A stretch of DNA of 64,000 nt from Eledone cirrhosa (taxonomy: Eukaryota). The translations under genes and the position numbers were made by a program. The stretch spans positions 389,794,001-389,858,000 of the forward strand of contig OZ024741.1 of NCBI GenBank assembly GCA_964016885.1. The letters run 5' to 3'. How positions within the stretch are numbered: the stretch's first letter is position 1; every line of letters begins with the position of its first letter. The notes under the pieces were generated by a model. It was not told where the DNA came from. It saw only the letters and a program-made list of their open reading frames with translations, and did not search any database. Below, in pieces: positions 28,285 through 64,000 of the stretch.

Positions 28285-28348
<64 letters not shown>

Positions 28349-41825: not shown

Positions 41826-42210
41826 ATATATTGGTAAACGGAAAAGAAAATGCTGACAAATTGTTCCCAGTGAAAAATAGTTTAATTAGGAATAAGTAAA
41901 AATTAGTAATAGTATTGGTTAGTATTCAGTTTTGGTTTTAAGTTTTACCGGTTGCGCATTTCTAATGCTTTTCAAAAATAATTTTGAGATAGAGCGCCCG
42001 TGATGTTTGCTCTAATCTGATTAGAGCAAACATCACGGGCACTCTATCTCAAAATTATTTTTGAAAAGCATTAGAAATGCGCAACCGGTAAAACTTAAAA
42101 CCAAAACTGAATACTAACCAATACTATTACTAATTTTTACTTATTCCTAATTAAACTATTTTTCACTGGGAACAATTTGTCAGCATTTTCTTTTCCGTTT
42201 ACCAATATAT
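41826..42210. repeat. 385-bp near-perfect palindrome (192-bp arms, 1-nt spacer at 42018)
   Basis: Arms are reverse complements with one visible mismatch (gagCgcccg / cgggcActc). Sits between (TA)n runs. Confidence 0.95.
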
Positions 42211-43299: not shown

Positions 43300-43545
43300 A
43301 GTTGTGGTAAGGATTTTGGACTTGCGATTATAATGTTGTGGGTTGTGTGTTGTGTTCTTGAACAAAACACTTCATTTCACATTGCTCCAGTACACTTAGC
43401 TGAAAATGAGTAGCAGCAGTAACTGGGGATTTATCCCTGTGATGGACTGGCCTCCCGTCCAGGGGAGAGTCTTATACTCTCAGTCACTTAACGCCATGGA
43501 AACTGGGATAAGCACTGGTCTGATGAGCCTCCAGGCTTGAGACAA
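43300..43545 (+). mobile_element. tRNA-derived SINE with conserved central domain (cctgtgatggactgg...ccaggggag...ggaaactgggataagc)
   Basis: Related copies at ~21500-21765(-), 42500-42720(+) and 55350-55600(+). Confidence 0.75.
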
Positions 43546-43639
43546 ATGTTTGTATTATAGAATCCTTTGTGTTTTATTAGCTGGATAGTCAGACAAGCAA
43601 AGATATCATGGAATCTGGACCATCTTTATACACTAATGC

Positions 43640-43850
43640 AGATCCTTTTGCATGTTACACCATGTTGAGCCTAATTATTAAATTTCAGAGTTAAAATCCC
43701 TTCAGTACTGGTGCCAACCAGATTGTCCAGAGTGGATGGGGAAAAGCCCTGTGGTCTTATCCTTTGCTCTTGGGTTAGAGGTAGATATCTCATATGGGAT
43801 GCCACAGTTAGTGACTCTTTAATTCCTTCCCAAATGCATTTCACTATTAG
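43640..43850 (+). mobile_element. CRE-like restriction-like endonuclease fragment
   Basis: From 43696: IPSVLVPTRLSRVDGEKPCGLILCSWVRGRYLIWDATVSDS (cf. PS.LEP.GL.R.DGKRPDG...PW..G..L.WD.T). Confidence 0.7.
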
Positions 43851-45229
43851 CTGCCATATTAAACTAGATTGATCAAATTCTCATGGAGCTATACTTAGCT
43901 TTATCTTGGGTTATCCTTTGTCCCTAATGGAAATATCATCTATTTATGACATGAATTTCAAAAGATTTAATAATACAAGTAACCTCATTATCAAGCTTAT
44001 GTTTGAAGCATAACTTAATAAAGGTTCTTACATAAAACTGTAATGGATGGTTTTCAGATATATAAAGAAACACTTTTCAGTTTTCTATAGTAGAACCAGG
44101 GCAATTTCAGGTAGTTTGGTATCAAAAGGTTTAAATGCGTGATTCTTATTTGTGATTATTTGGAACTATTAATAAATCTTCAAATTTTCCATGATGTAGG
44201 GAAAATTGAAATATATACATATAACACAAAACATTAACATTAGATAAAATAACACATACGTCAGTTATAGAAAAGTAAAGGAACTTTAATTTCTTTAAAT
44301 TTTTTATGAAATTAGAATGGGAAAAATGTTGTTGCCATTCAAACACCTTCTAATTAAGTTTTAATTTTACATGTTTTTCTTTCTGGTCTTTTTCTTTGCT
44401 AACATGTCACCACTTTGCATTTGTTAAAAATAGTGAAATATTTTCATCAGATATAGTTGAACATTATTGTTATTATTCCAAGAATCTGGCAAAAGTCCTC
44501 ATGTTTTGATTACAGTTTCAATTAAATTTTTACTTTAGAAAAATGTCTTGCGAGAATATGGATTGAATAATTTATGCCATTTTTGCTCATCACTTAATAA
44601 GGAGATGTTCGTCAATTCAAAATTGATTTCTTTTGACTAGAGCCAAGGCTAGGTTATTCAGGTCTGGTATGTTGTTAGATTCAACTACCCCTGCATATTT
44701 ATTACTGATACTTATTGATCTTGGAGAGATGAAAAGCAAAATGGAATCTAGTAGATGTAATGAGATGAGACTAAATACTGTTCCAATATTTCTGCCAACT
44801 TCTCTTAGATAACTTTTTTCATATCAGTACAATGCCAAAAATATATTTGAGAAGGGTACCAATTATTACATCGACTTCAGTTTACTATTGAGACTTATTG
44901 TATTAATCTTAGTAGAATGAAAATCTAATTTGAACTCCAGAATGTAAAGAGAAGAGACTATATATATAATGTAAGGTATTTAGTACGGTGCTAAACCATT
45001 CCTGCTAACTTGCTTCTCTTTCTTTATCCAATATCAACATAGAGTTACTAGTATTTGTTATCTGTAAAAATATAAACAAATTGAAAATCCCATTTGTTAA
45101 AAATAACAGTGGAATCTGTTATCAACTGGTTTTTGTTATTAAAATTACTGGGTCGGAAACTCTTTATTTGTTCTATGTTATCAGAAAATTAATTTGAAAG
45201 TGTTTGGATGAAGCAACTTCCAGCATCAC

Positions 45230-46350
45230 CATCATCATTATCATCGTTTTTACATCCATTTTTCCACACTTGCATAAGTTGATCAGGTCCTTCTCTTTGT
45301 TGCGTTCCTTCGTCATCTCCTCTGCCAAGTCTTAGCAATTTAAGGTCCACTCTCACAACCTCTGCCCAGGTCTTTCTTGGTTGTCCTCTATGGTGGCTTC
45401 GTTCCACTGGGATTTCCTGGCATTTCTTCACCCATCGGTCATTGTCCATAGCAATGCAGTCTTCTCTCTTGCACACTACCTTGGGTTCCTCTTAAACCCA
45501 ACTTCTCCCTTAGCTTGTCTAAGCTCTGCCTTTCTCTTACACTTACATTGTACATCCAACGAAGCATGGTTGCTACACATGTCCTCTGCAGTCACAGCCA
45601 ATATTTCATTACCATGCAGCATCATACTCCACACACAGGCGTCATACAGCTGTCCTTTTGTTGTCAACAGTGGGAGTAATTTTCTAAACTTCTTCCACCC
45701 TATCCTTATTCTAACTATTATATTCTCCCATGGATAGCCCATTTTAAACTCCTCTGTTATGGCCTGAAGAACTATGATGAACAGCAGTGGGCTAAAAACT
45801 GAACCTTGATAAACTCATACCTGTACTTTGAATTCCTCATTAAACTCATTTCCTTCTCTCACTTTCCTGGCAGCTCCTATGTACATAGCTTGCACTGCTC
45901 TCCCAAACCATTATTTTACACCTAGTTTCCTTAAGGACCACCAGATAATAGATTAACAAAAGCTAAATATAGTGGCTTATTTTTGGCTAGGATCTTCTCT
46001 TGTAGTTGCCTCACTAAGAAGAGGACATCTGTAGTAGATTTCCCAGGTACAAAACTGAACTGCATCTCATCTACTTTGACTCTTTCCTTAATTAACTGTG
46101 CTATAACTCTTTCTGTCACTTTCATAACTTGGTCCATTAGTTTTATTCCTCTATAGTTGCTCCTCTCTAGAGCATCACTTTTGACCTTGTAGCAATTTAT
46201 TATTGTACTGCTGTGCCAGTTATTGGGTATGACTCCATCATGTATTATTTGATTTACTATGCGGATTACTAGTTTGACTCCTACCTTTCCCAATGCTTTT
46301 AACATCTCAGCAACTATTTCTGATTGTCCTGCAGCTTTACCATTCTTCAT
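45230..46350 (-). mobile_element. Internally deleted RTE LINE, left arm of head-to-head pair
   Basis: RT fragments 45931-46350 and 45476-45742, catcat tail at ~45230-45245. Confidence 0.88.
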
Positions 46351-46975
46351 CCCCTTAAGGAAGGACCCATAGAAGTGGTTGATAGCTTCTGCTATCTAGG
46401 CAATGTATTTAGTAATGGAGGAGGGTGCTCTGAGAGCATAATAGCTAGAGTAAGGATAGGATGGAAAAAGTTCAGAGAGCTACTATCACTATTAACCACA
46501 AAAGGTTTCTCTCTACATACAAAAGGACAACTGTATGACACCTGTGTGCAATGCTACATACTAGTGAGCTGTGACTGCAGAGGATGTGTGTAGGCTGGAG
46601 AGAAATGAAGCAACCATGCTCTGTAGGGTGTGCATTGTTAAGTGTGAGAGAGATGAGAGCTTGGACGAGTTGAAGAAGAAGCTGGGTTTAAGAGGAATCC
46701 GAGGTGGTGTGCAGGAGTGAAGACTGTGTTGGTTTGGACATGAGATGTGCATGGATAATGATCGTTGGGTGAAGAAGTGCCAGAAAATGCCATTGGAATG
46801 AAGTTACCGTAAAGGTAGACCAAGAAAGAACTGGGCAGAGGTTGTGAGAGCTGACCTCAAATCGCTGAGACTCACAGGTGATGACAAGGGATTGCAATAT
46901 GTGGAGTGATGCCTTTCTGAGAAGGGCCTGTCCAACCCATGCAAGTGTGGAAAAGACATAAAAATGATAATGATG
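46351..46975 (+). mobile_element. RTE LINE 3' fragment, right arm of head-to-head pair
   Basis: EGPIEVVDSFCYLGN...ARVRIGWKKFREL, ending in an aatgataatgatg tail. Confidence 0.88.
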
Positions 46976-47095
46976 TATTTATAGCTTCCATCTTATTCCG
47001 TCCATTTAGTTTCGACTTGAGAATAAGTCTCAGTCTGTGCATGTATTCCACCTTAAATTTTTCTTTCATTTCTTCCTGCATTATCCATTATCTTA
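46976..47095 (-). mobile_element. R4/Dong-like non-LTR fragment
   Basis: MKEKFKVEYMHRLRLILKSKLNGRNKMEAINT resembles the post-RT motif KEY..R...ILKS.LN..N...AINT. Confidence 0.6.
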
Positions 47096-47514
47096 TCAAC
47101 TTCCAATATCCCTTGTTGTTGTTGTTTAATATCAATAATCTAATGATATTAATCATTAATAATTATGATATTTTGAAATGTTTTCATACTGGATGAAATT
47201 TCTCATTGTTTTTTCACTAAATAAATGGAATAGATCTGCCTTTTGCTAAGACCTCTATTTCTACAGTGAAAACACTTTTATACCATAATACCAACTAAAT
47301 AGGTCTTATTTTGTTTGCTTTATTACATATATATATAGTATATTTAAAATTTCATACACTTAACATGTATGCACAACCTTATGTTTCGCGGTCCAGTTAT
47401 GGTCAACACTGTATAGGTATAACATTTTATATATACTGAATATGCTCTCTTGCAATAGATTGAGCATTTTTTCCCTTAGATACCCTGCATATACTCACAC
47501 AGGTACATAAAAGA

Positions 47515-48570
47515 TGTAGGCAAGCTATCTAAGAATGTAGATTTTATATGTGGTAGATGCTCAGGTGCAATAAGTAGTAAGTGTCCACTGGATACTAGCT
47601 TCTTCAACTGCCCAGATGGTTCTATAGAAATAATAGACACTTTCTGTTACCTGGGTGACAAAATCAGCAGCGGAGGAGGGTGCTCTGAAAGTACAGTAGC
47701 CAGAGTTAGAACGGGATGGAAAAAATTCAGAGATCTAATACCACTGTTGGCCACAAAAGGTTTCTCTCAAAAAATGAAAGACAGATTGTATGATGCTTGA
47801 ATATGAACAGCAATGTTACATGGCAGTGAGACCTGGACACTGTGTGCAGAGGACCTGCGTAGATTGGAAAGGAACGAAGCATGCATGTTCTGTTGAATGT
47901 GTAATAGTAATATACACAAACGGCAAAACATAAACAAACTAAGTGAGAAATTAGGAATAAGAGGAAACAGATGCAGTTTAGTTGAAAGGTGATTATGTTG
48001 GTATGCTTATGTGATGCACATGAAAGACAACCGCTATGTAAAAAAGTGGAGGGCGATCAAAGCTGGTGGAAGCTATGGAGTAGGTAGACTGAGAAAAACC
48101 TGGACGACATGATAAAAACTGACCTTGCATACTTACACCTCTCTAGGACAATGTCACTGGATCGAAACCTTTGGCACTACGCAGTAATACAGAAGCCCCA
48201 CTTTCCCTTACGTATGAAGTTAAACCTACAGTCAGTAGGCACTTCTTAACCAAATATACACCTCACCCCACTATCTACTCCATCCTCCCACTTTCACCCA
48301 CACCACCTTTCTCTGTAAAGTTATGTTGGTACCACAGAACATCCAGTCCACACTGTAAGGTGGTTGTGTAGGAGACATGGTAAAAAGGCTCCCAGTTCAC
48401 ACTGTAAATGTGGTTGGTATTAGCAAGGGCATCCAACTGTAGAAAACCTGCCAGATACAGTTCTATATGAGCAAGACACGGTCACCTGACCAATCTTGCC
48501 TCAAGTGGGTCAATCCCATCTAACCCAAGCTAGCATGGAAGATGGATGTTAAATGATGATGATGATGATG
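47515..48570 (+). mobile_element. RTE LINE 3' fragment
   Basis: Similar to the reverse complement of 7916-9000, with a (GAT)n tail at ~48553-48570. Confidence 0.9.
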
Positions 48571-48684
48571 TATATGAAATTGCTAGTAACATGTGCTTAC
48601 GCCGTATTTGACTAAATAAAATTAGTCTATTAGTTGGGATTTAAAAAAAACCTGAATGGAAAAAAGGATGAGTATTCACATACA

Positions 48685-48745
48685 CGGGACATGAACCCAC
48701 ATCTTTGGTTTGCCAGACCAATGTTACTACCAATACGCCACCCAC
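48685..48745 (-). mobile_element. Isolated tRNA-derived SINE head or tRNA pseudogene
   Basis: gtggcgtattggtag...ggtctggcaaacc...gtgggttcatgtccc has A- and B-box-like motifs and an anticodon arm, but no good acceptor stem. Confidence 0.5.
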
Positions 48746-48859
48746 ACTTTCTTCCTTTCAATTAGAAGCTATAACCATAGCATGTAAAATATATATTTAG
48801 AAAGAAAGCAAGCAGGCTTTGTTTATAAACAGCAAGCAAATTTTGTATCTCTCTCTCTC

Positions 48860-48932
<73 letters not shown>

Positions 48933-50714
48933 TAAGGAAACAGTGGATTTAAAAGAAATAAAATTGAAATATATAACCACTTGGAAATTTGCCCTGTAAA
49001 ATTAGTACAATGAAGGATATTTCAATTATTTCATTAAAAAACATTGGTTATTAAAATTTAGGGTAAGAAAGAAGGATGCAAAACAAATTGTTTACCAGCA
49101 AAAATACTCATAATTTATGTGGAGAGATTAAGAGATTGAATTTTCCTGTTTTGCCCTTGTAATATTTCTATGATCTTATATTTAGATATTACCTGGGTTG
49201 TGATGTTTATTGAAAATAGTAATAAGTATGTCTTCAGTTTTTCTTTGGTATACTTTAATGTTAATAGTTTTTAGTGTCTTGTCTTCAATTTTACTCTTCA
49301 TTTTTCTGACCTAAACTTGTGTCGCATTTATTTCATTTTAGTAGCCTTGTATAACAGTTCTTGTACAGTCTTGTTTAAAAATTCTTATACACAATTCTTA
49401 GGGAATTCTTTCAATCTTTTCAGTTCACATTTCATGCTCAATTGATCATTTCTGTAGTCAACTTTAGATATAGCTTTTTTTCCTGTTTAATGCTTCTATA
49501 ATGTAATAACTTTGTTGTTATAAATACAGTATACAGTTTTATGACAAAAGTTATTCTGTTATAATTTTTGTAATAAATTTAATTCAATGAATATTAACCA
49601 TTCTGCATTTTTTTTAAATTACATCTTCTTTATCATAATTGTTCTGACCTTTGCAATTATTCTTTAAGACATAATCAACAAAGCTTTCTGACTTCACATA
49701 TGGTTCATCTCCTATTCAACTTCTTCAGTTTTGAGGCTTTGCTTTATTAGAAAATTTTTCCTTAGTTCTTCTTTGTGTACTTTATTCACACTGTTAGCAA
49801 TCATCTATCATTTATATCAATATCTAAATTAATTGGAACATCTTTTAAAAAAAATGAAATCACAAATCATGGTCATCAGTAGAAGCTTTGTTAAATCAGT
49901 CCCTTAACTACAAATTTCTTGCTATATCAGTTAACTGTATGCTATTTCAATAATTTATCTTTAAACATGTCTCCATCTGCCTATTTAGTTTAATAAAATC
50001 TCATATCAAAGTATCTCATCAGAGCGTTAAATGGCTCATTGTTTCACACTGTTGCAAATTTTAATATTGAATTCATAATGAAATTTTTAATTAACATTTT
50101 TTGTTTTTCTTGTATTTTATATTCATTTTCTTTAAAAAAAAATGTTCTATTATTGATTGTTCTTTAAGTTTGAATTGCTTCAGTCTTCATGATTAGTATT
50201 TCCTTTGTCTTTTCTTTGTTTACTTTTTTGTTTTTATAATGGTTATGAGTTGCATCCAAGTTTTTATACATCTTCATTAATATCCACGTCTTCTTGTCTC
50301 TTCCTTTAACATTTTGTGAATTAAAAATAAAATAAAATATTTCAAATAATTTGTATTTAAATAGAATTTTTAAGTGCTTTAATTTTTTATTGACATTTTG
50401 TATTCTATGAGTTCCTTGTATGAAAATTATATTGGTAAAAGAATGCACTGATGTATTTAGCATTATTTTACATATCATTCATTTTCAATATACTGTTTCT
50501 GGCAGTAAGGGTTCATCCCAAGCCCCAGAGTGCTTACTGTCCCAAAGTGAAGTATAGCACAGCTAGGTAGAACAGATGTTTTGTTGAAATACCAAATGTT
50601 AATAATTGGCAGGTGTGTGCATACACACACACATATGTACCCATAGCTTGCACACATACACACACACACAAGTATGTGTGAGTATTTGTGTCTGAGAATG
50701 ATTGTTGCAGAGTT

Positions 50715-51461
50715 TTACTGATTTTGTTGTAATAACATGGTTTTATCAACTATAAATGGATCTGCCATCCCTGCACCATTTTCTGATGAAGTTTTCCAGT
50801 CATCTTTATTCACAATATAACCCAAACACTTGCTGTCATTTTCTTCTCTTGGATTTTCTGGTGACAAACATTCTTTACTTGAAGTTTTCAGTTGGTGATA
50901 CACTACTGCTTTGTTAGACTTTGGGGATTTCTGTACTTTTATGGCCTGCTTTTCACCTTCTTTTCGTTTGTCATCTTTGTTTGCAATACTAAGTTTTATC
51001 GGAGTGTATTCATAACATTCAAATGAGAATGTATGTGCCCGTGGAATGTGTTGTGATACATTAGGTTTTTCTTTTTGTTTAAGAGTTTCAATATTATCAT
51101 GTGGTCTATAGTTCCTGTTGCAAACAATTTCTAAGTTAGGATAAGTTGCAGATCGTTTTGACATTGGAACCAGGTAATCGTCTGCGCTATCATCGCTAAT
51201 TTCAATTTCAGTATTGAAATCATCCAGTTCGTAGTCGATATCTGAATCCTGTTCACATTTCTGCAAAGCAAACACTGTGTTTTTCTTTTTACAAAACACA
51301 ATGATTGCTCCTGTAATACTTACAGTAAATAATGCAAAAAGACTTGTTAAAACAAGTACAGCTGTAAAAGATTGTGTCCTATGTTGCTGATGGCTCATCG
51401 TACCCCTAATTGACTGATAATCATTAGCTTCAGAAACAGCCGAAGCATTAGTCAAATTCAT
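50715..51461 (-). CDS. Uncharacterised single-pass (type III-like) membrane protein, 248 aa, CDS within one exon
   Basis: Non-repetitive ORF with ATG start, upstream in-frame TAA (51480-51482) and likely acceptor tttcttacatAG near 51529. One hydrophobic helix FTAVLVLTSLFALFTVSITGAIIVF followed by CKKK. N-terminal sequons NLT and NAS. Acidic, Tyr-motif-rich tail. Confidence 0.75.
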   Translation of the reverse strand: MNLTNASAVSEANDYQSIRGTMSHQQHRTQSFTAVLVLTSLFALFTVSITGAIIVFCKKKNTVFALQKCEQDSDIDYELDDFNTEIEISDDSADDYLVPMSKRSATYPNLEIVCNRNYRPHDNIETLKQKEKPNVSQHIPRAHTFSFECYEYTPIKLSIANKDDKRKEGEKQAIKVQKSPKSNKAVVYHQLKTSSKECLSPENPREENDSKCLGYIVNKDDWKTSSENGAGMADPFIVDKTMLLQQNQ

Positions 51462-51807
51462 CCTCTTTTCTTTAATGTTTTAGGACTTATGGTTTACATT
51501 TGCTTTATAATTCTTGTGTTGAAATTCTCTATGTAAGAAACTAAATATAATACGTTCATTCTAGCTTCCGAACCATTCAATACTATTAGAATACTGAGTT
51601 CTATTGCCTTGCATCCCTAACCATTTCTACCAGAAAAGCATTATTTTGAATCCCCACCCATTTCTTCCAGAATCTGTTCTTTGATTAATCTTACTGAGTA
51701 TTTAAGAAAAAAAAAGCATTATTTTTCTTATGTCAAAATGTTTTCCACTTGATATAGATTATTTCAATACAATGTATTCCTCAAATTTATAAATAATATA
51801 TATATAC

Positions 51808-51843
<36 letters not shown>

Positions 51844-53969
51844 CCGTATGTTATATATGTATATTATATTATATTTATTTATATATAAGTTTATTTATAT
51901 ACAAGTATATTATGCATGTATATAATGTATTATATATATATATAGTTATAACTATATATGTATATAGTTTTTATTAGCTTTATTGATTTCTCTGCCTTTG
52001 TTTGATCTGTATATAATGTGTTTGTTTTTTATAAGATCTCGATATCAAAAATGTTTTTTTCCTTTTTCTTATTCCTCCTCAAGCAAACTGTTGTTTGTTT
52101 TTTGTTTTTTTTTCTTACTAAAGCTTCATTTCTTCTGCTATTTTTTAATATTCAGTCATATCGACTTGTTCAATGTTTTTCTTATCTTTGAAGTCAACTT
52201 AATTTTTTCATTCTCTTTTTTTAATCACCATAGTTTAGTTTCACCCTTTTTTGTTGTTGTTTTTTAAGAGATGTTTTTGCTCTTTGTTGTTTTTTAAATT
52301 TCTCGGTCTCTTGTTTGCTGTTTTCAGGTGAAATCTACTTTTATCCATTAACTTTTAATTGTCTGCTATATTTGTGCTAAGAATTCTTTGTAATTATGTG
52401 TTTCATTTCTCATCAAGTCTGTAAATGGAAAACAGTAATGGTTTTGGTCTTTAAAACTCATTTTTATGATGGAAGGGTTGGGAGGGGGTAGTTGCGATGG
52501 GAGAGATTCACTTGATTATTTTCTAGAGAAGTACACAAAATATTGATACTTGGAATATAAATGAGCAGAAGTTAAATTGTTAGATATTTGTGGAAATATT
52601 AGTTGCCTGGTAAACATCTGTTGGCTTGATGCAAGCAAGAGACCTGAAAAAGAAAAGTAAAGTTAATGATTTATTTAATTATATATGATTTATTTAATTA
52701 TATATGGTTTAAATTATTTAAGGTGCATGATTGGTATTAACATATATATTCATAGAAATGTTTCTGGGTTTTTTGGTTTTTTTTTTACACTAAAAGCTCT
52801 GGGCTTGAAATATTAATCCTTTTCATACTAAACCACTTGAAACTGCTCCTGCTTCTATGTTTATTTAAAAATAACTTTGTTTTGTTTTATTTGTCATCCT
52901 TTCCTCTTTATATATTTGTACTGCATTGTACCGGTTTTCTGAAACTTATCAGTCATTTATTACATATTTCACAATACTTCATGTTAACTATACTACTTCA
53001 TTTTAAAGCCTTTATATTTTATGTAAAATACCAGCCCAAATACCAGCTCAAAAAGGACAAAGTTTGTTAATTTGCTAAATCTCTCTAAATTTTTGATTAT
53101 TTTCAAAAGTGATTTGAAAATAATAGGCAGTTTATTTTATATAAATATAGTAATGAAAAGGTTAAAGACACAAGAAACATTTACGTGTTACTCAATATCT
53201 GCAACCATTATTTTTTACACTGTTTGCTAATGCTGACATCACTCTTAAAATTTCTACTCACGTTCTTCTCAACTAACTTCAATGAAGTTTTACATATAGC
53301 TGGGTCATTAGCTATGTCAGTTTTGGCAAATCACCAAATCACATTCATTAAACCTTTTGATACCAAACCACCTGAAATTGTCCCTGGTTCTATGATAAAA
53401 GTTGTTTGTTTTAAAGTATTTATATTTATATTTATCTAAAACCTTCCACCATAGTTTTATATAAGAACCTTTGTTAAGTTATGTTCCAAACACTGAATTA
53501 ATAGTGAGAAAATTAGTTATTTTACCAAAACCCTCCAAATTCTTGATTATTTTCAAGATGATTTGGAAATCATGCTGGCTTTAGTAATGCTGGCATCACT
53601 CTTAGTAATTTTGTTAATGTTTTTTTCAACTAACTACAATGTAGTTTTACATATATAGCTGTGTCAACAACTATATCAGCTTTGGCAAATTACAAAACAC
53701 AAATTCATTAAAGCTATTTTGATTTAGCTGTATATACTTTTAAATCGTATGTTTGAATCTCAAATGGTATTGTATGGTGGCCATGTAGCTAAGCACCAAA
53801 CTAGAAAATATTGTAAAATACATTCAAATCCTTCCATAGACGAGAAAACCTTTCTCAGCTTTTTATTTTGTGTTTATACAAAACATTGGGGGGGGGGGGG
53901 GGGGGGCTGTTTGTGTATGCCCCTCAGCTTAAAGGTTCAACAGGTTAAACCCAGTGGAATAAGTACCAT

Positions 53970-54078
53970 AGGTGCAAGCATGGTTATGTGATTAAAGAGT
54001 TCACTTCACACCCAAGTGGTTTTAGGTTCAGTCCCTGTGAGTGAAATTTGGTAGACAGAAACTGTAAAGAAGCCCACC

Positions 54079-54119
<41 letters not shown>

Positions 54120-54322
54120 AAAATATCTATCTATCTATATATGTGTGTGTGTCCATATCTGTATTTGTTTATGTCTCATAATCTAGCAGTTTGGAAAAGA
54201 AAGTTTATAAAATAACTACCACCCTTCAAAAATACAACTACTAGAGTTGATATGCTTGACTAAATTGCTTCAAGGTGGTGCCCCAACATGGCCACAGTCT
54301 AATGACTGAAACCAATAAAAGA
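53970..54322 (+). mobile_element. SINE with internal (TA)n/(TG)n microsatellite
   Basis: Degenerate tRNA-like head, ttggtagacagaaactg...agaagccc core, 3' ggtgccccaacatggccacagtctaatgactgaaac...aataaaa. Fragments also at ~21780-21830 and 30470-30560. Confidence 0.7.
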
Positions 54323-54639
54323 GTACAATGGTATGTGTTATGTGGATAGGGATGACACAGGAGTCAGAAAAATCTGTTGGATCAACAAAATTGATGTTGA
54401 TTTGGTTTCAATGTGAGGATAATGTCCACTGTGTTTAGGAAATCAGTAAATGGAAACCAATAATCAATAAGGTGAATGATAAGGAATCAATAATGAGTAA
54501 GAATAGATTATAAAAGCTAAGAAATAATTTAGTTGAGTCAGAATGACTAGTGAGAGAGAATTAACTTCTGTTGAAGTTGTAGGGACATTGTTGTTTCACT
54601 TGGTGTATCTTGGACATTTTAAGCCTAATGGTTTAAACC

Positions 54640-55350
54640 TCCCTTGCAGCTGAATGCTGAGAAGATTGGGTTACGAATTGACACCCAAAAGACCAAGGCT
54701 ATGAAGGTGGGAAGCATACCCAGCCAGGCGGCTGCAGTTAAGGTAAACCAAATGTGGCTGGCCAAGGTCAATCACTTCACGTACCTTGGCAGCAACCTGA
54801 ACAACAGTGGCGATGTTGTGCTGAACATCAACTGCAGGATTGGAAAGGCGACTGTGGTGTTCTAACAGATGCACTCAATTAGGTGAAATGCAGCCATCTG
54901 CACATACATTAAGCTGCGCCTGTACACCAGCATTGTGCTTCCCATAGCCATCTATGCCTGCAAAACATATTAACACACTGCCAAGACAGATAGGCGTCTA
55001 AACACTTTCCATCAAAGGTCTCTGTGTAAGATTCTAAAGGTCATGTAGCAAGATTAGGTTAGGAACTAAGAGATCCTGCAGAAAGCAGGTTCACGTACAC
55101 TGCAGGAGATCATCCATTTTGTGGGTCACATTTTACACCTCCCAGAACATCACCTGTCCAAAACCTGTCCTCTGAAGGCAAGTGGAAAAGAGGCTGACCG
55201 AAGATTACCTGGCAGTGGACATTCCAAAGTGACCTATAAAATGTCAACATCACCTGGCACGGATGTCAACAAACTTCCACTGACCAACAGCATTGTAGAC
55301 GATTAGTTGACTTAGGTTACTAACGGAACCAGCCGGACTAAGAGCTAAAA
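54640..55350 (+). mobile_element. Degenerate RTE-type LINE 3' fragment of another family
   Basis: IGLRIDTQKTKAM...VNHFTYLGSNL...INCRIGKATVVF, then GHILHLPEH. Confidence 0.8.
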
Positions 55351-57059
55351 TGTAAATGTTTTAGATTTATGATCATAATATTGTGGATGCGATTCCTGGA
55401 CTGGGTTGTATGTTATGCTCTTGAGCAAAATACTCCAGTACACTCAGCTGAAAATGTGTACCAGTAGTAGCTGGGAATTTAATCCTGTGATGGACTGGTG
55501 TCTTGTCTGGGGAGGGGGTCTTGTACTCTCAGTTGTTTAACACCATGGAAACCAGGATAAGCACTGGCCTGATGGGACTTCAGGCTTGAGACAGGAGACC
55601 ATCCCTTTCCAAGTCTGAATAGTGCCAGGTTCTTCCAGAGAAGGAGCGTGAGAGATAAAGGAAGAATCAACTGCCGTACTGGATTAGTACTTTATTTATC
55701 AACCTGAAAAAGCTGAAAGGCAAAGTAGACTTCAACAGGATTTGAATTCAGAGAGCAGCAGAGCCAGAACAAATACCCAATGGCTCTACACATTTTACAC
55801 TTTTCTGAATGACTAGAATAAGAAAATTAACAAGAATTGTTGAAATAGATTGTCAACCCAAATAATTTCAGAAGAAAAAGGGAGAACAAGTATATTAGCA
55901 TCACTTGTATATACTGGATGATGCAAAGAGATGGAGGGGAGGGGTCAAAAGCTTTTATATGTAATCCAAATTTTATCTTTGACTGGAGATAGGTATTTTT
56001 ACTTTTAACCCTTCTGATATCAAACCATTTAAAACTGTTCCTAGTTCTACAATACAAACTATTTGTCTTGAAATATTTATATTTATCTAAAAACCTTTCA
56101 TCATAATTTTATGTAAGAACCTTTCATAAGTTATGTTCCAAACAACCCTGGGTCTACGATACAAAGCTTTTTATTTTAAAATGTTTATATTTATCTAAAA
56201 TCATAATTTTATGTAAGAACCTAATAAATCCATCCAAACTTTTGATTATTTTCATTATTTCTTGAAAATCATAGGCCGTTTTTGTTATTTTTTGTTAAAA
56301 ATATAACAACAAAAGGGCTGAGAATCACTAATTCTGCTAATTGCAGGTAACTGTTACTATTAAACTCTGAGAAGGAATGAAAAAAAAATGTTAAAATTGA
56401 AAAGAATAATGAATGAAGACAGTTTACTGAGATTTCTTTCTCTGTCAAACAGCTCAGCAAATATTCAGTTGAACTGAACAAAAAATGCAATCATCTCATT
56501 TTGTCTCTTTGTATGTATTTTTAGAAACTGGGTGGTTTGATGATTTTATTGTTAATTTGAAGAGGTGTTGTTCTTGTTGATACTACTACTACTACCACAA
56601 CTAATGGTGCCATTGACAATAACATCACCACCATACTACTATCATCCCCATTGTATATCATTCTCCCAACCCCTCACATGCACACCATACACACAGTGAG
56701 AATCCTTGATTAATTTTGCAAGAATTTAGTTGTTGAAACCAAGATTTGTGAAGAGAGAGAGTGCAGTAATTAGATCATGTATTTTGAGAGAAATCCAGTA
56801 GTTATTTAGTGCATAACCTCCACATCACTTCCATACTTTTGTCAAGCTACTTCCATTCTTATTTGTCTAACATGCTACATCTCTTATGCTGAATTTTAAT
56901 AATTACTATTCGACCTGAAACTATAAAATATCATACTCATGAGAATTTAACCCATTTTTTTTCGAAACACCTGGATCTGTAGGTTATCATGCTCACTAGA
57001 ATTTACACCCTTTTAATATCAAACCACCTGAAACTATAGGATATCACACTCACTAGAAT

Positions 57060-57470
57060 TTAACCCTTTGATATCAAACTACCTGAAAGTGCCTCTGGTT
57101 TTATGGTAGCATTTATTTGTTTCAGAGTGTTTCTACTATCAAAAGCCTTCCATCATAATTGTAATTAAGAGCCTTTGTTAATTTATGTTCCAGCCACCAC
57201 CTTAACTCTTAACATCTTGTAATGATGTTGCTAGTATGATTATGAAAATTTGCAGTGTGAGAATAACAACTTTAATTTTTAATGTGATGAAGTCATAGTG
57301 CTATATTGTACTTTTCAAGGATGTCTTGCTAATGTGGTTTTGTGAGGTGCAAGACATTAAGAGTTGATAATGAGAAAGTTAGTAATATTACTAAATCCTT
57401 CTAAATTATTAATTATTTTGAAAATCTTAGGCAGTATCTTTCATTAGAAATATGGTAATGAAAGGGTTAA
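57060..57470. mobile_element. piggyBac-type MITE (ttaaccctttgatatcaaa ... aaagggttaa)
   Basis: TTAA-CCCTTT terminal motifs. Related ends or bodies at ~21890-22135, 36200-36305, 53060-53600, 56005-56270 and 56945-57060. Confidence 0.6.
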
Positions 57471-58380
57471 TATTGGCGAAATGGCCCAGTAGGTGTAAGT
57501 TATTGAACTACGTCCCTTCTTTTGGTAACTGAATGCTAAAGCTGGCACATTACTGCACCAGCTCCTGCAATTCTTGCACTTAATTCACCCTCCTGTTTTC
57601 TATCACTTAGTGCACTGCCCAGGCTTCTTTGAAAAGACAAGTGTCTTAGTCTTTGCAGCATTGATTTTCATTCCTGCCATGCAGCACTCAACAGTAAGCC
57701 TATCAAGAGCATGTCAGAGATCACCTTCTGACAAGTTAAGTAGTACCATGTCATCTGCAAGTTCCAGCCAACTGATCTTATGTCTGCTTGTCTTGATACC
57801 ACATCCAATCTGGCTGCATATATCAATCCTGCCCATGAAAATTATGAACAAGAAATGTGACATTACACACACTTGGCAGAATCCAACACTCACATTAAAT
57901 GGTTTCAACTTAGCACCATTTATCTGAACACAAGTACTAGAGTATTTATATAGAGACATCACGGCAACAAGAAGCTGTCCATCAATCATCTGGCTTTTTG
58001 AGGTCCTTCTGAAGAAGCCAAGCCAAAATGCAGATCCAAAAGAGACATGGTCACCTGACATGAACTGTGTCATAATGTGACCACCAATCTAACCCATCCA
58101 AGCATGGAAAAATTGACGTCAAATGGTAACTGACACAGGACCGTGATCTCTAGCGTTATGCAGTATTACAAAAGACCCTCTTTCCCATGTGCAGGGGCTG
58201 AGGCATACATCTATATGCGTCACCTTTCCTTCCATCACCCCTTCCATACACCCTACTCACGTCCTAACACTCCACCCACGTCCTAACACACCACCCTTAG
58301 ATTTACCTCCCCAATCCCCATACACCCAGTCTACACTGTAAGGTGGTTCTGTAGGTGTCACAACAAAAAGCACTTAGTAC

Positions 58381-60857
58381 ATGGGTTAAAGGTTCTGTCC
58401 CGTTGTGAGACATCCAGGTCAGAAGACCATATTTTGCTTACACAGAACTGATTTTGGCTTGATTTTTATGGTTGGATGCGCTTCCTAAAGCCAACTACAT
58501 TTACAGTGTGGACTGGGCGCTTTTTGTCTTGATACCTATACAACCACTTTACAGTGTGGACTGGGCGCTTTTTGTCTTGATACCTATACAACCACTTTAC
58601 AGTGTGGACTGGGCGCTTTTTGTCTTGATACCTATACAACCACTTTACAGTGTGGACTGGGTGCTTTTTGTCTTGATACCTATACAACCACTTTACAGTG
58701 TGGACTGGGCGCTTTTTGTCTTGATACCTATACAACCACTTTACAGTGTGGACTGGGTGCTTTTTGTCTTGATACCTATACAACCACTTTACAGTGTGGA
58801 CTGGGTGCTTTTTGTCTTGATACCTATACAACCACTTTACAGTGTGGACTGGGTGCTTTTTGTCTTGATACCTATACAACCACTTTACAGTGTGGACTGG
58901 GCGCTTTTTGTCTTGATACCTATACAACCACTTTACAGTGTGGACTGGGTGCTTTTTGTCTTGATACCTATACAACCACTTTACAGTGTGGACTGGGTGC
59001 TTTTTGTCTTGATACCTATACAACCACTTTACAGTGTGGACTGGGTGCTTTTTGTCTTGATACCTATACAACCACTTTACAGTGTGGACTGGGAGCTTTT
59101 TGTTGTCACTCCTACACAATTGCTTTACAGAGTGGACTGAGTGCTTTTTGTTGTGTCTCTTACATGACCACTTTGCAGTGTGGGCTGGGGACTTTTTTTG
59201 TGTCACCAACATGACCACTTTACAGTGTGGGCTGGGTGCTTTTTGTCTTGATACCTACACAACCACTTTACAGTGTGGACTGGGCGCTTATTGTTGTGGC
59301 TCAGGATGACTGTGTGGATTGGAGACTTGGGCAGAGGAGATGCATGGGGAATTGGGGAGGTATATATAGGGGTAGAGTGATTACAACGTGGGAGGGAAGG
59401 AGGTACATACTCGCTGCATGACTCAGTTCCTGCATATGCGAAGGTGGGTCATCTGTATTACTGCATAGCGCCAGAGATCATGGTCTTGTGCCATCGCCTT
59501 TGAGAGGTGCAATTGTACAAGGTCAGCTTTTACCACCTCATCTCAAGTCTTCCTAGGTCTTCCCACTCCATAACTTCCATCTACTTTGAGTACTCTGCAC
59601 CTTTTTATACAGCTGTCATCCTTCATCTGCAACATTTGTCTATACCAATACAATCTCCTCTCTAACATACTGCATCTGATCCCTCTTATGCCTAATTTCT
59701 CTTGCAGATCATTATGGTTTGCTGTTTGTGTATATTATTACTATTACACACCCATCGGAGCATGGAAGCTTCATTTCTTTCCAATCTTACCAGGTCGTCT
59801 ACACACAGTTCCCATGTCTCACTACCATGCAACATTGTTCTTTGTGTACATGCATCTTAGTCTGCCTCTCATTTTGAGGGAAAAACCTTTTGTAGTTAGC
59901 AGCAGTAGTAACTCCCTTAACTTTCTGCAACCCATTCTCACTCTGGCGACTGTGCTTTTTGGAACACCCTCCTCCACTGCGAATTTGGTCACCCAAGTAA
60001 AAGAAACCATCTAGTACTTCTACAGAGCCCTCTGAACATTTGAAGGAAATTGTATCCTGAGAACTCTTCTTACTTACTGCCCCTGTGCACCAACCACATG
60101 TAAAACCTGTATTCTTTGTTAGGCCACCTGAGATCCCACATCTTTTGTTTACCCTTAGTTTGCATTTGGGACATAGGATGGAATTTCTACCTACTCCTTT
60201 TCTGCACACTGAGCAAGGCCATTTCCTTAAGGAGATCTGGGCCCTGTTTTCTTTTCTACATACTAGAACTTTAGTCTTTGCCATGTTTGAAATTTCTTTT
60301 CTAATTCTGCTATAGATTCAACTATAAGGTCATCTGCACACAGGAGTTCCCATGGAAGCCAGTCTTAAACTCTTCTGTTATAGCCTGTAGGACGATAATA
60401 AACATGAAAGGACTAAGAATTAAGCACGTTAAATTCTTCACTATAGTCATTGTTAATTCTGACCTTGCTAACTATTCTTCTATACATGGCATGTATTGCC
60501 CTCACAAGCCACTGGTCTGCTCCTAGTTTTCTAAGAGCCCACCAGATAATGGAACAGCGGACTCTGTCAAAAGCTTTCTCCAAGTCCACAAAAGCCAAGT
60601 AGGGGGTTTACCTTTAGCTAGGTACTTCTGATGTTGCCTTACAAGGAAGAGGGCATCTATGGTACAAATCTAAATTACATCTCATCTAGGTTAACTTGTT
60701 CCCCAATCAGCTGTGCTATAACTCTTTGTATGACCTTCATAACCTGGTCAACCAACTTAATACCTCTTTAGTTTTCTCTGTCTAGAGCATCTCCTTTGCC
60801 CTTTTAGCAGTTGACGGTGCTGCTGCTATGCCAGTCATTGGGTATGGCACCATTTTG

Positions 60858-60860
<3 letters not shown>
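58381..60860 (-). mobile_element. Degenerate RTE LINE with expanded 48-bp array in 3' UTR
   Basis: Frameshifted RT/PHD pieces (AFVDLEKAFDRV, WPCSVCRKGVGRNSILCPKC). 5' end abuts (TA)n at ~60861. Confidence 0.9.
58493..59290. repeat. 48-bp tandem array (about 13 near-identical plus about 4 diverged units) in RTE 3' UTR
   Basis: Unit caaccactttacagtgtggactgggYgctttttgtcttgatacctata recurs every 48 bp (58541, 58589 ... 59069). Confidence 0.95.
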
Positions 60861-60910
<50 letters not shown>

Positions 60911-61074
60911 TTGTATAAATTTGATAGAAATATCCAAGAGTAAGAGCATTCAGTCTATAGGACGAGTTAAGTATAATTAGTTACAACAGTGACATATACA
61001 GCTACTTAAATTTCATTAGTTATATAAAATAAAAATGAAAATAAAAATGGCTACCTCCATTTTTAGTTTATATA

Positions 61075-61124
61075 ACAGGCTGATTGAGTTGGGATGTATA
61101 ACCCAATGAAACTTAAGTACCTGT
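61075..61124 (+). ncRNA. Type I minimal hammerhead-like motif (1-nt core insertion)
   Basis: acagg-CTGATTGA-G TTGGG atgtataa CCCAA T-GAAA-CTTAAG-TA-cctgt. Stems I and II are perfect, stem III is the palindrome ACTTAAGT, and the cleavage triplet GTA is at 61117-61119. Confidence 0.7.
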
Positions 61125-61251
61125 ATATGTTACTGTTGTAACTAATTACATATGTGTATATATATATGTATATATATATATATATATGTATGTACATATA
61201 TATATATATAGTATATACTTTCAGATGTTCAATCATCTGGCAGGAAGGTAT

Positions 61252-61294
61252 ACGTTGCTGACGATAGCTAATAAACTTGAAACTAGTACATCGT
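61252..61294 (+). ncRNA. Type I minimal hammerhead ribozyme motif, intact core
   Basis: acgttg-CTGACGA-TAGctaataaaCTT-GAAA-CTAG-TA-catcgt. Stem I pairs 5/6, stem III is the palindrome ACTAGT, and GTA is at 61286-61288. Confidence 0.7.
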
Positions 61295-61550
61295 TCCTTT
61301 GTCAGTGTTGAACAAAAGGGCAATAATGGTTGCTAAACACTGTATGGCTTAATCCGGGATGTTTGTTTACAAACAAACCGAGCATTAAAATAAATGTTTG
61401 GTAAATCCATACGTACATATATATCTGTGTGCATGTATGTATATATATACATACTACTGTACGTCTGTATACATATATGTATGTATGTATACATACTTAT
61501 ATTTAAGTAACAGCCGTACTGAGTGAGAAATGAAATTTTGTTTCATTTTT

Positions 61551-61597
<47 letters not shown>

Positions 61598-61599
<2 letters not shown>

Positions 61600-63493
61600 T
61601 CATCATCATCATCATCATCACCGTTTTACGTCCGTTCTTCCACGCTAGCATGGGTTAGACGGGTTGTCCTGTTGTGGGCAGTGTCTGGTCGGCTGACCAT
61701 GCCTTGCTCATACAGGAACTGATCTGGCTTGATTTCTACAGCTGGATGCCCTTCCTAACACCAACCTCATTTACAGTGAGTGCTGGGTGCTTTTTCGTGG
61801 CGCCTACACGTCCACTTTACAGTGTGGGCTGGGTGCTTTTTTGCCGTGGCACCTCCACGGCCACCTTGCGGTGGGGGGGGGGGGGCATATTGTTTATATG
61901 CTTCAGCATGTACCCATGGGAGGTCGGGTACCCTGTATTACTGCGTGACGCCAGAAGTCACGGTCGTGTGTCATTGACTTTGAGAGGTGTAGTTGGGTAA
62001 GGTCGGCTTTTATCACCTCATCCCAAGTCATCTTGGGTCTCCCCACTCCGCGGTTTCCATCAACTTCTAGTGCTCTGCACCTTTTTATGCAGCTGTCATC
62101 CTTCATACGCATCACATGTCCATACCAGCGTAACCGCCTCTCCTGCACGCAGCATTTGATTCCTCTTATGCTCAGTCTCTCTCTCAATTCATTTATGCTT
62201 TGTCGTTCACGTATATTACTGTTACACATCCATCGGAGCATGCAGGCTTCGTTTCTCTCTAATCTACGTAAGTCTTCCACCTTCAGCGCCCAGGTCTCAC
62301 TACCATGCAACATCGCTGTTCGGATACACGCATCATACAGTCTGCCTTTCATTCTGAGGGAGAAGCCTTTTGCAGCTAGCAGTGGTAGTAGTTCCCTAAA
62401 CTTCTTCCATCCCGTTCTTACCCTAGTTATTGTACTTTCTGAGCACCCACCTCCGTTGCTAATTCGGTCACCTAGGTAGCAGAAGCTGTCTACTGTTTCT
62501 ACAGGGCCCTCCCAGAGATTGGTGGTACTTGTTTCCTGTGGCTGTTTGCTTGCTGTTTCAGCACAGCTGCTGCATGTGAATCCTACATTCTTAATTAAGC
62601 TTCCTGAGATCCCGCTACATCTCTTGTGTACCCATTGTTTGCATTTGGGGCAAAGAATGGAGTTCCTACCTACACCTTTCCTACATACTGAGCAAGGCCA
62701 TTTCCCTGAGGGGATCTGGGTTCTGTTTTCTCGTCTACTTATAAGGACCTTAGTCTTTGTCATGTTGACTTTGAGGCCCTTTCTCTCTAGTCCCTGCTTC
62801 CAGGTTTGGAATTTATTCTCTAGTTCTACCATAGATTCAGCTATGAGTGCGAGGTCATCAGCATACAGGAGTTCCCATGGGCATCCGGTCTTAAACTCCT
62901 CCGTTATTGCCTGCAGGACTATGATGAACAGGAGAGGGCTAAGAACAGAGCCCTGGTGGACCCCAACCTGTACGCTAAATTCCTCGCTATACTCATTGCC
63001 AATCCTAACTTTGCTGACTGCTCCCCTATACATGGCTTGTACCGCTTTCACAAGCCATTCATCTACTCCTAGTTTTCTAAGAGCCCACCAGATTACTGCA
63101 CGTGGAACTCTGTCAAAGGCTTTCTCAAGGTCGACAAATGCCAAGTAGAGTGGCTTACTTTTAGCTAGGTACTTTTCCTGTAATTGCCTCACAAGGAAGA
63201 GCGCATCAGTGGTGCCCTTCCCTGGAACAAACCCAAATTGCATCTCGTCTATATTCACCCGGTCCCTAATCAGCTGTGCTATAACTCTTTCTGTTACTTT
63301 CATGACCTGGTCCATCAACTTTATACCTCTATAGTTTCCTCTATCTAGTGCATCGCCTTTACCTTTGTAGCAGTTGACAATGATGCTACTGCACCAATCT
63401 TTTGGTATGGCCCCCTCTAGTATTACCTGGTTAACGATACGTGTGGTTATAGTGTGACCTACAGACCCAGATGCCTTCAGCATCTCGGCAGCT

Positions 63494-63494
<1 letters not shown>
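61598..63494 (-). mobile_element. Young 5'-truncated RTE LINE (open RT plus PHD frame, 63494 to 61903)
   Basis: Uninterrupted frame with YADD and PHD (62563-62700). (CAT)n tail at ~61598-61620. Both ends abut (TA)n. Confidence 0.95.
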
Positions 63495-63550
<56 letters not shown>

Positions 63551-63581
63551 TATATATATATATGTGTATATATATATGTAT

Positions 63582-64000
63582 AAAGCATAAATGAATTGAG
63601 AGAGAGACTGAGCATAAGAGGAATCAAATGCTGTGTGCAGGAGAGGCGGTTGCGTTGGTATGGACATGAGATATGTATGAAGGATGACAGCTGCATAAAA
63701 ATGTGCAGAGCACTAGAAGTCAATGGAAACTGCGGAGTGGGGAGACCCAAGAAGACCTGGGATGAGGTGATAAAAACCGACCTTACACAATTACACCTCT
63801 CAAAGGCGATGACACACGGCCGTGACCTCTGGCGTCACGCAGTAATACAGAGTACCCGACCTCCCATGGGTACAAGCTGAAGCATATAGACAATATGCCC
63901 CCACACCCTCCCACTGCAAGGTGGTCGTGGAGGTGCCATGGCAAAAAAGCACCCAGCCCACACTGTAAAGTGGACGTGTAGGCGCCACGGAAAAAAAAGC
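63582..64000 (+). mobile_element. RTE LINE 3' fragment, same subfamily, opposite orientation (runs off window)
   Basis: Reverse complement of ~61790-62200 with scattered differences. Encodes RGIKCCVQERRLRWYGH...TWDEVIK. Confidence 0.92.

What the first reader, a model, noticed from the sequence alone, without database searches (positions are those of the whole stretch)
60974..61410. Two different near-intact minimal hammerhead ribozymes in tandem, separated by a (TA)n tract
Seen: HHR-1 (61075-61124) has perfect stems I and II, core CTGATTGA...GAAA and palindromic stem III ACTTAAGT. HHR-2 (61252-61294) has a canonical CTGACGA...GAAA core and palindromic ACTAGT. Both lie on the + strand, the CEP78 sense strand. 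HHR-1 sits in the right arm of an inverted repeat (60974-61148) whose left arm lost the core by deletion between two tataac repeats. Known: minimal type I HHRs with palindromic stem III mark Penelope-like elements and retrozymes and can cleave as dimers. Inference: cleavage at both sites would release a ~169-nt RNA (61120-61288) or cut the host pre-mRNA. CTGATTGA may be an undescribed core variant.
Basis: partly seen in the sequence, partly recalled or inferred. Interest (0 to 1): 0.78.

Follow-up and report, generated by a model that had tools for sequence, protein, structure and literature searches.

The report
Two transposon ribozyme relics, one microsatellite
The two self-cutting-RNA (hammerhead) motifs are real but belong to two different repeated mobile-element families, which likely inserted separately into the same TA repeat of a 179-kb intron and are predicted to be disabled there; the interest lies in the families, one with an unusual eight-base catalytic core and one that is likely a hitch-hiker of Penelope-type retrotransposons.

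Summary
Both motifs are at the stated coordinates and are not chance, but they are not one unit. HHR-1 is the 3' end of an old, broken Penelope-like retrotransposon family with Hydra-clade motifs; the inverted repeat is its usual head-to-head pair with a tail on one arm. The family core is CTGAATGA (437 matches with the 8-base core, one family copy with 7); the window's CTGATTGA is a rare point mutant. An insertion after A6 is published as a low-activity natural variant. Here it is fixed family-wide: two subfamilies differ at 0/42 core and stem positions but 58/206 upstream. HHR-2 lies in a 5'-truncated copy (61210-61559) of a 428-base non-coding tandem element with 10,700 exact motif matches, stem covariation and Penelope-type insertion marks. 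At this locus HHR-1's stem I is predicted to be locked in the hairpin, HHR-2 has two stem mismatches, and their stem III palindromes cannot pair with each other, so the 169-nt product is unlikely. A foreign hammerhead lies within 400 bases in 12 of 111 other family-1 loci. The CEP78 sense-strand intron is confirmed. No RNA data; the scan's earlier notes held nothing on this.

The parts
60862..60907 (.). (TA)n tract flanking the tail end of element 1; likely insertion target
   Evidence: Sequence; (TA)n is the listed target of Hydra-clade elements
60908..60973 (-). 3' 'tail' of family-1 Penelope-like element, present on the left arm only
   Evidence: Tail plus adjoining arm 87% identical to locus L005 over 119 bases and 75% to the tail of the younger sister family; a tail on exactly one arm in 15 of 19 inverted pairs, on both in none
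60974..61056 (-). Left arm: inverted, 5'-truncated family-1 3' end with a 27-base deletion removing the core and stem II, and a 12-base duplication
   Evidence: Alignments
61057..61148 (+). Right arm: 5'-truncated family-1 3' end without tail
   Evidence: 5 differences in 92 bases from the subfamily A majority; the same arm lies downstream of the endonuclease reading frame, same strand, in 16 of 20 loci picked by protein
61075..61124 (+). HHR-1, type I; core 61080-61087 (CTGATTGA; family CTGAATGA), stem II 61088-61107 closed by G.U, palindrome 61111-61118, predicted cut after 61119
61149..61209 (.). TA-rich tract at the 3' end of element 1, into which element 2 likely inserted
   Evidence: Sequence; element 2 has TA runs on both sides
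61210..61559 (+). 5'-truncated monomer (about 350 of 428 bases) of family 2, a non-coding hammerhead tandem element, ending at the family's second fixed 3' end
   Evidence: 95% identical to the L033 unit, unit positions 350 to 273; unit length 428
61252..61294 (+). HHR-2, type I; core CTGACGA 61258-61264, U.U at the base of stem II (family trait), palindrome 61282-61287, predicted cut after 61288; mismatches at 61255 and 61275
61560..61597 (.). (TA)n tract after the 3' end of element 2
   Evidence: Sequence
14136..64000 (+). Part of a CEP78 intron of about 179 kb that holds the whole cluster
   Evidence: Exon 14025-14135 matches octopod CEP78 residues 190-223 of P0004; residues 224-288 match at G000:C2:389986937, + strand; length

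Best explanation
The two hammerhead motifs belong to two different high-copy retroelement families that likely inserted one after the other into the same (TA)n microsatellite, and neither is predicted to cut RNA at this locus. Step 1 (family assignment shown, mechanism inferred from published work): a Penelope-like element with Hydra-clade motifs copied only its 3' end, twice, head to head, from its two reverse-transcription start points, so that one arm has the tail and the other ends in TA. Step 2 (inferred order): a younger 428-base non-coding element, likely mobilised by the same kind of (TA)n-targeting enzyme, inserted into that TA tract. Step 3 (mutations shown, effect predicted): the left arm lost its core; HHR-1 acquired a core change and a G-C to G.U change and, when read from the CEP78 promoter, is trapped in the long hairpin; HHR-2 acquired two stem mismatches. 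In the active parent elements each hammerhead likely cut multimeric element RNA as a homodimer through its own palindromic stem III.
For: Family 1: 85 matches from 40 of 1795 candidates scored; arm downstream of a GIY-YIG-type frame in 16 of 20 loci; DKT, CxCx5C, CxxC and CxH motifs as defined for Hydra; one tailed arm in 15 of 19 inverted pairs, as described for these elements. Family 2: 10,700 exact motif matches, control 0; 63 of 79 segments end at one of two sites 56 bases apart, 57 of those 63 run into TA, and 14 of 15 inverted pairs with both ends at these sites have one of each. Independence: family 2 within the locus in 4 of 111 distinct family-1 loci, family 1 in 1 of 29 family-2 loci; some other hammerhead family within 400 bases in 12 of 111 (loci counted by eye). 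Inactivity here: HHR-1 stem I pairing 0.72-1.0 alone and 0.0 with the left arm; HHR-2 stems at most 0.05 against 0.9-1.0 for stem II of a typical copy; stem III homoduplexes -6.6 and -4.8 kcal/mol, heteroduplex -0.2. Copies decay without sign of selection: column conservation 0.86 in the ribozyme and 0.86 upstream in subfamily A, 0.85 and 0.89 in B. A sense-strand family-2 hammerhead is expected 0.32 times in an intron this long.
Against: Inactivity rests on equilibrium folding only. While the chain ends at 61124, HHR-1 stem I still has 0.26-0.36 pairing, so a brief co-transcriptional window exists. Three other family-1 copies also lost stem I once 60-110 bases of flank were added (at least two are inverted pairs), so the model may under-call activity. 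A Penelope-like hammerhead needed protein to cleave in vitro (PMC11167929), which folding does not model. The right arm is closer to the family majority (5 of 92 differences) than average copies, but the window's arm was the search query. Adjacency of the two families (4 of 111) is above a rough random expectation of under 1% (my estimate), which I ascribe to the shared target, not tested apart.
Confidence: 0.87

Rival explanations
1. The two hammerheads work as a pair at this locus and release a 169-nt RNA or cut CEP78 pre-mRNA, as an exapted element.
For: Both are on the sense strand of a CEP78 intron, 169 bases apart; both keep CUGA, GA, GAAA and a GUA triplet; HHR-1 stem I is partly formed just as the chain reaches 61124.
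Against: No predicted heterodimer; HHR-1 trapped by the left arm; HHR-2 stems broken at two places where the family pairs; HHR-1 carries two rare changes; such neighbours are common with many partners; the released piece would be mostly TA repeat and junction sequence.
Confidence: 0.04
2. One of the two still cuts weakly, in trans: HHR-2 pairs through ACUAGU with one of the many family-2 transcripts, or HHR-1 cuts before the hairpin closes, giving low-level intron cleavage without a function.
For: 10,700 family-2 motifs could supply partners; retrozyme RNAs are abundant in other animals (PMC7229834); transient stem I in HHR-1.
Against: HHR-2's own stems I and II are below 0.05 pairing; minimal hammerheads show low activity even as dimers (PMC4209133); an insertion after A6 lowers activity (PMC3088659).
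Confidence: 0.07
3. The family-1 motif is a hammerhead-derived fold kept for a non-catalytic job, such as recognition by the element's own protein, so the 8-base core marks loss of catalysis rather than a working variant. (This concerns the family and is compatible with the main explanation; the confidence is for this reading of the core.)
For: The insertion should break a core contact; hammerhead cleavage was dispensable for insertion in vitro in another Penelope-like element; the 32 bases after the motif are also well kept (4 of 32 differences) and no compensatory stem change separates the subfamilies.
Against: All catalytic positions, the palindrome and the cut triplet are unchanged between subfamilies while loop 2 changed at 3 of 8 positions (Fisher p=0.003), the pattern expected of a ribozyme; the published A6 insertion kept low activity.
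Confidence: 0.3

Closest known systems
Hydra clade of C-terminal-endonuclease Penelope-like elements and their hammerheads (Craig et al. 2021, PMC8557442; includes Hydra-1_Obim from Octopus bimaculoides)
   Same: Family 1: RT followed by a C-terminal endonuclease with CxCx5C linker, DKT, CxxC and CxH; (TA)n targets; 5' truncation, inverted pairs, one-sided tail; sense hammerhead near the 3' end. HHR-2 has the CUGANGA-U...U-GAA form seen in 14 of the 26 Hydra rows of that paper's File S2 (counted by eye).
   Different: All 26 Hydra rows have a 7-base CUGANGA core (some with one extra base after it); family 1 has CUGAAUGA. Its hammerhead is unlike that of Hydra-1_Obim. The tails here are 56-66 bases against the 30-40 reported. 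No intact family-1 reading frame was found.
A6a core-insertion hammerhead and U10.1.U11.1 variant (Perreault et al. 2011, PMC3088659)
   Same: An insertion after A6 matches the family-1 core; the U.U base of stem II matches family 2. Both are described as natural, the first with low activity.
   Different: There the insertion is mentioned as one tested variant; here it is fixed across hundreds of copies and two subfamilies of a retrotransposon. I saw text passages only, not the figure with its sequence.
Metazoan non-LTR retrozymes (Cervera and de la Pena 2020, PMC7229834; review PMC7761336)
   Same: Family 2: short (428 bases), low GC (37%), no reading frame seen, one type I hammerhead per unit, head-to-tail multimers, strongly self-paired as a circle (z about -7.9).
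   Different: Circular RNA not tested. No target-site duplication discernible in (TA)n. It shows Penelope-type two-site 3' ends and inverted pairs, which those papers do not report in the parts I read; they propose Penelope-like mobilisation only as a likely candidate. It carries a conserved ATGCAAAT, whereas retrozymes are said to lack promoters.
Minimal hammerheads of Penelope-like pseudo-LTRs (Cervera and de la Pena 2014, PMC4209133)
   Same: Type I, short stem I, palindromic stem III, expected to work as dimers; inverted pairs on opposite strands 100-700 bases apart are described.
   Different: That paper's descriptor requires CUGANGA and would miss family 1. Both motifs here keep a 6-8-base palindrome rather than lacking stem III.

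Membership tests
Type I hammerhead ribozyme (HHR-1 family) | Three-way junction with stems I and II, GAAA and NUH triplet | tested here: met
   (family copy L124: 5 and 6 Watson-Crick pairs)
Type I hammerhead ribozyme (HHR-1 family) | 7-base CUGANGA core | tested here: not met
   8-base core in 437 matches against 6 with 7 bases, of which 1 is a family copy; fits the published A6a variant
Type I hammerhead ribozyme (HHR-1 family) | Covariation in stems | tested here: inconclusive
   Stems invariant between two subfamilies (0 of 42), so conserved but without compensatory change
Type I hammerhead ribozyme (HHR-2 family) | CUGANGA core, stems and covariation | tested here: met
   One stem I pair reads G.U 41, U.G 24, A-U 6, C-G 2, unpaired 4 of 77 copies; a sister family with a 467-base unit has different, fully paired stems. 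The window's own copy is one of the unpaired.
Type I hammerhead ribozyme (both) | Self-cleavage | not testable with these tools
   No RNA run listed; needs an in vitro assay
Penelope-like element, Hydra clade (family 1) | RT followed by C-terminal GIY-YIG endonuclease | tested here: met
   Broken frames 40-64% identical to the sister family's RT-endonuclease frame, in order, upstream of the hammerhead. Pfam gave no hit for either protein; the domain reading rests on motifs.
Penelope-like element, Hydra clade (family 1) | CxCx5C linker, DKT, CxxC and CxH around the conserved E and N, no CCHH | tested here: met
   CSCRRPETC and SDKT in family-1 loci; CRLC and CxH at the C-terminus; definition. 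Absence of CCHH judged by eye.
Penelope-like element, Hydra clade (family 1) | N-terminal RWK motif | tested here: inconclusive
   Family-1 N-terminus not recovered; RWR in the sister family
Penelope-like element, Hydra clade (family 1) | (TA)n targets, truncation, inverted pair, one-sided tail | tested here: met
Penelope-like element, Hydra clade (family 1) | Placement in the clade by RT phylogeny | not tested
   No tree built; reference proteins not loaded
Metazoan non-LTR retrozyme (family 2) | Short, low-GC, non-coding tandem unit with one type I hammerhead | tested here: met
   428 bases, GC 0.37; 37 of 79 segments longer than one unit, up to 1979 bases
Metazoan non-LTR retrozyme (family 2) | Highly self-paired unit | tested here: met
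   Circular fold -132.7 kcal/mol against -90.6 +/- 5.3 for 40 shuffles; part of this comes from a TA-rich hairpin
Metazoan non-LTR retrozyme (family 2) | Accumulates as linear and circular RNA | not testable with these tools
   No RNA holder listed; a circle junction would read like a genomic tandem junction
Metazoan non-LTR retrozyme (family 2) | Target-site duplication, when present | tested here: inconclusive
   Ends run into (TA)n, where none can be read

The most novel reading that the evidence does not exclude
The locus samples two unreported things. (a) A Hydra-type Penelope-like lineage amplified for a long time with a working CUGAAUGA hammerhead that published CUGANGA descriptors cannot see, so some elements said to lack hammerheads may carry such cores. 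(b) A 428-base circular-RNA retrozyme with over 10,000 ribozyme copies is inserted by a Penelope-like enzyme, leaving that enzyme's two-start-site signature, which would be direct genomic support for the proposed but unshown mobilisation of animal retrozymes by Penelope-like elements; its conserved ATGCAAAT may be part of its own promoter.
Probability: 0.4. Interest if true: 0.62.

Novelty: new variant of a known kind. Interest (0 to 1): 0.36.

Why it matters
For this locus, little: it is a pile-up of mobile-element ends in a microsatellite, and it warns that 'two ribozymes in tandem' arises often in such genomes. The families matter more to specialists. The role of hammerheads in Penelope-like elements is stated to be unclear (PMC8557442, PMC11167929); a core variant predicted to be slow yet held unchanged across subfamilies offers a direct test of whether catalysis or shape is selected. 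Family 2 offers a testable case for who mobilises animal retrozymes.

Tried and rejected
Rfam scan at E<=10: no hammerhead family, only TA-repeat matches to microRNA models. Sequencing runs: no RNA holder listed, no evidence either way on expression; four runs laid were contigs of unrecorded kind, none spanning the locus, two from one sample that may be the assembly's source. Metagenome scan for the family-1 motif: 0. One pattern for other stem II sequences with the CTGAATGA core in this genome: 2 matches against 1 control, no second family; the pattern was narrow. Pfam did not recognise the element proteins. An autonomous partner sharing sequence with family 2 was not found among the fetched loci; the genome was not searched for it. 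Naiad and Nematis assignments were considered and dropped: the endonuclease is C-terminal and the linker is CxCx5C. A MITE reading of the inverted repeat was dropped because the arms are element 3' ends that also occur singly downstream of the reading frame. 5' ends of family 2 do not pile up at the cut site (3 of 79 within 10 bases), which does not separate circular from uncut multimeric templates. Literature: 'hammerhead'+'CUGAAUGA' 0 papers; 'retrozyme'+'cephalopod' 1 listed, not on this; searches found no report of these families; the core string was absent from the supplements searched (figures not readable, one file not searched). Lunse, Weinberg and Breaker 2017, the paper most likely to list such variants, was not held, so novelty of the core is not secure. 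The paper on the newt satellite 2 promoter was not found. Earlier scan notes: none on this genome, phage hammerheads only elsewhere.

Full report
Observation. The sequence holds both motifs as described. HHR-1 (61075-61124) has five Watson-Crick pairs in stem I, an 8-base core CTGATTGA, a six-pair stem II closed by G.U, GAAA, the palindrome ACTTAAGT and a GUA triplet. HHR-2 (61252-61294) has CTGACGA, the palindrome ACTAGT and GUA, but a U.U mismatch in stem I and a C.A mismatch in stem II. A type I descriptor finds only HHR-1 in the window, against 0.05 hits per shuffled window. Rfam lists no hammerhead here. The host is an octopod by inference from the closest CEP78 proteins. CEP78 exons lie on the + strand up to 14135 and the next matched exon is 178.8 kb further on, so the cluster is in a sense-strand intron.

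Family 1. The 186-base query gave 85 matches from 40 scored of 1795 candidates. A fixed pattern allowing one or two bases in the core gave 103 exact matches; of the 100 listed, 94 read CTGAATGA, 2 CTGATTGA (one is the window) and none had seven bases (counted by eye). Shorter patterns gave 437 matches for the 8-base core and 6 for the 7-base core, of which one is a family copy. In 16 of 20 loci picked by protein, the arm lies on the same strand some 350-500 bases (further in two with insertions) after a broken RT-endonuclease frame. That frame has DKT, CxCx5C, CxxC and CxH, the features that define the Hydra clade in PMC8557442 (section 11 read); no tree was built. A younger sister family, 54-58% identical in the endonuclease region, shares the tail but has a quite different hammerhead with a 7-base core at the same place, which supports reading the family-1 motif as a hammerhead. 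The inverted repeat is two 5'-truncated 3' ends joined head to head; of 19 such pairs in 54 loci, 15 have the tail on one arm, 4 on none, none on both. This layout is described for Penelope-like elements, and the tail is explained by two reverse-transcription start sites (PMC11167929, passages).

Selection on the 8-base core. Sixty loci were picked by the sequence upstream of the ribozyme; 26 of 30 and 27 of 30 had the arm, with CTGAATGA intact in 14 and 12. The two subfamily majorities differ at 0 of 42 core and stem positions, 3 of 8 loop positions, 58 of 206 aligned upstream positions, 27 of 163 near the end of the reading frame and 4 of 32 downstream (Fisher p=5e-6 against upstream, 0.003 against the loop, 0.03 against downstream). 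So the motif was held while the element was active (inference). There is no compensatory change, and the kept downstream bases show that protein recognition could explain part of this. After insertion, copies decay evenly (0.86 against 0.86 and 0.85 against 0.89). An insertion after A6 with low activity is described in PMC3088659 (passages). None of the 26 Hydra rows in File S2 of PMC8557442 has this core, and the descriptor of PMC4209133 would miss it. The paper by Lunse et al. could not be read.

Family 2. The 196-base query gave 43 matches, the full-length ones 94-96% identical. A 33-place pattern gave 10,700 exact matches, control 0; 98 of the 100 listed have the paired stem II and 2 the window's form (by eye); in laid contigs G holds 99.7% of summed depth at 61275 (not a copy number). 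The unit is 428 bases, GC 0.37, and folds far below shuffles as a circle. One stem I pair takes four paired forms in 73 of 77 copies. The U.U at the base of stem II is a known variant and the commonest Hydra form (14 of 26 rows). In 48 loci (50 fetched, 2 overlapping dropped; 20 taken in genome order), 63 of 79 segments end at one of two sites 56 bases apart, 57 of these run into TA, 5' ends are scattered, 37 exceed one unit, and of 24 head-to-head pairs 15 have both ends at these sites, 14 with one of each. These are Penelope-type marks on an element that otherwise fits the animal retrozymes of PMC7229834 (part 2 of 6 and passages read), whose mobiliser is only proposed. The window's copy is a truncated monomer, 61210-61559, flanked by TA, lacking the ATGCAAAT that is intact in 43 of 48 copies and shared with a 467-base sister family. 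The name 'octamer' and a parallel with the newt satellite 2 promoter are recalled, not checked.

Are they a pair? Family 2 lies within 4 of 111 distinct family-1 loci, 42-221 bases from an arm (139 fetched, 120 distinct, 111 with an arm), and family 1 within 1 of 29 family-2 loci. The same 111 loci hold 38 hammerhead motifs outside the arms, from several families, 12 loci having one within 400 bases; shuffles give 0 in 1.18 Mb. Shared (TA)n targeting explains this (inference). In a transcript from the CEP78 promoter the left arm comes first: HHR-1 stem I pairing falls from 0.72-1.0 to 0.0 once the chain passes 61130, with 0.26-0.36 at 61124. HHR-2's stems are at or below 0.05. Both need a partner for stem III, and the two palindromes pair with each other at -0.2 kcal/mol against -6.6 and -4.8 with themselves. 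These are equilibrium predictions, and protein can switch such ribozymes on. No RNA run was listed, so nothing is shown about expression or cleavage.

Verdict. The two families are members of known kinds; family 1 carries a core variant known singly but, in the papers I could search, not as a family trait, and family 2 gives a clean test of retrozyme mobilisation. Papers seen: PMC4209133 parts 1-2 of 4 and supplement passages; PMC8557442 passages, section 11, supplement part 2 and searches; PMC3088659 passages and a supplement search; PMC7229834 part 2 and passages; PMC11167929, PMC7761336 and PMC6765202 passages; others as listings only.

Noticed in passing
L081-L087 (e.g. G000:C2:72346500-72353000): Younger Hydra-type Penelope-like family with open frames of up to 722 residues, tandem pseudo-LTRs and a canonical hammerhead with a very short stem II; a candidate mobiliser for family 2, though it shares no detectable sequence with it.
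   Followed up: partly
L014:1900-3090, minus strand: Sister of family 2: 467-base tandem unit with a canonical hammerhead, the same ACTAGT palindrome, TA-rich hairpin, tail region and ATGCAAAT.
   Followed up: partly
L002, L009, L022, L027, L062, L076, L111, L116, L134, L159, L168 flanks: A diverse group of hammerhead motifs with stem I TTTAT/ATAAA, CTGATGA core, long variable stem II and TA-rich palindromic stem III; parent elements not identified.
   Followed up: no
window:50715-51479, minus strand: 254-residue open frame with a hydrophobic segment, antisense inside the CEP78 intron; no Pfam match; possibly an exon of a nested gene.
   Followed up: partly
window:61903-63834 and 8302-10188, minus strand; 59394-60860: RT-bearing LINE copies with a PHD-like finger; an older decayed copy and a younger copy with an inverted segment flank the hammerhead cluster.
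   Followed up: no
window:14623-16635 and 58463-59292: Long tandem arrays (66-base and 48-base units by their translated repeats) that give spurious open frames.
   Followed up: no
window:43854-43895: Weak match (E 0.63, with a stop) to the last 14 residues of the 238-residue Octopus vulgaris CEP78-like protein, which are absent from longer octopod CEP78 proteins; that gene model may end in a repeat.
   Followed up: no
L089:9538-9728: An older, about 78% identical family-2 fragment 12 kb downstream in the same intron, minus strand.
   Followed up: no
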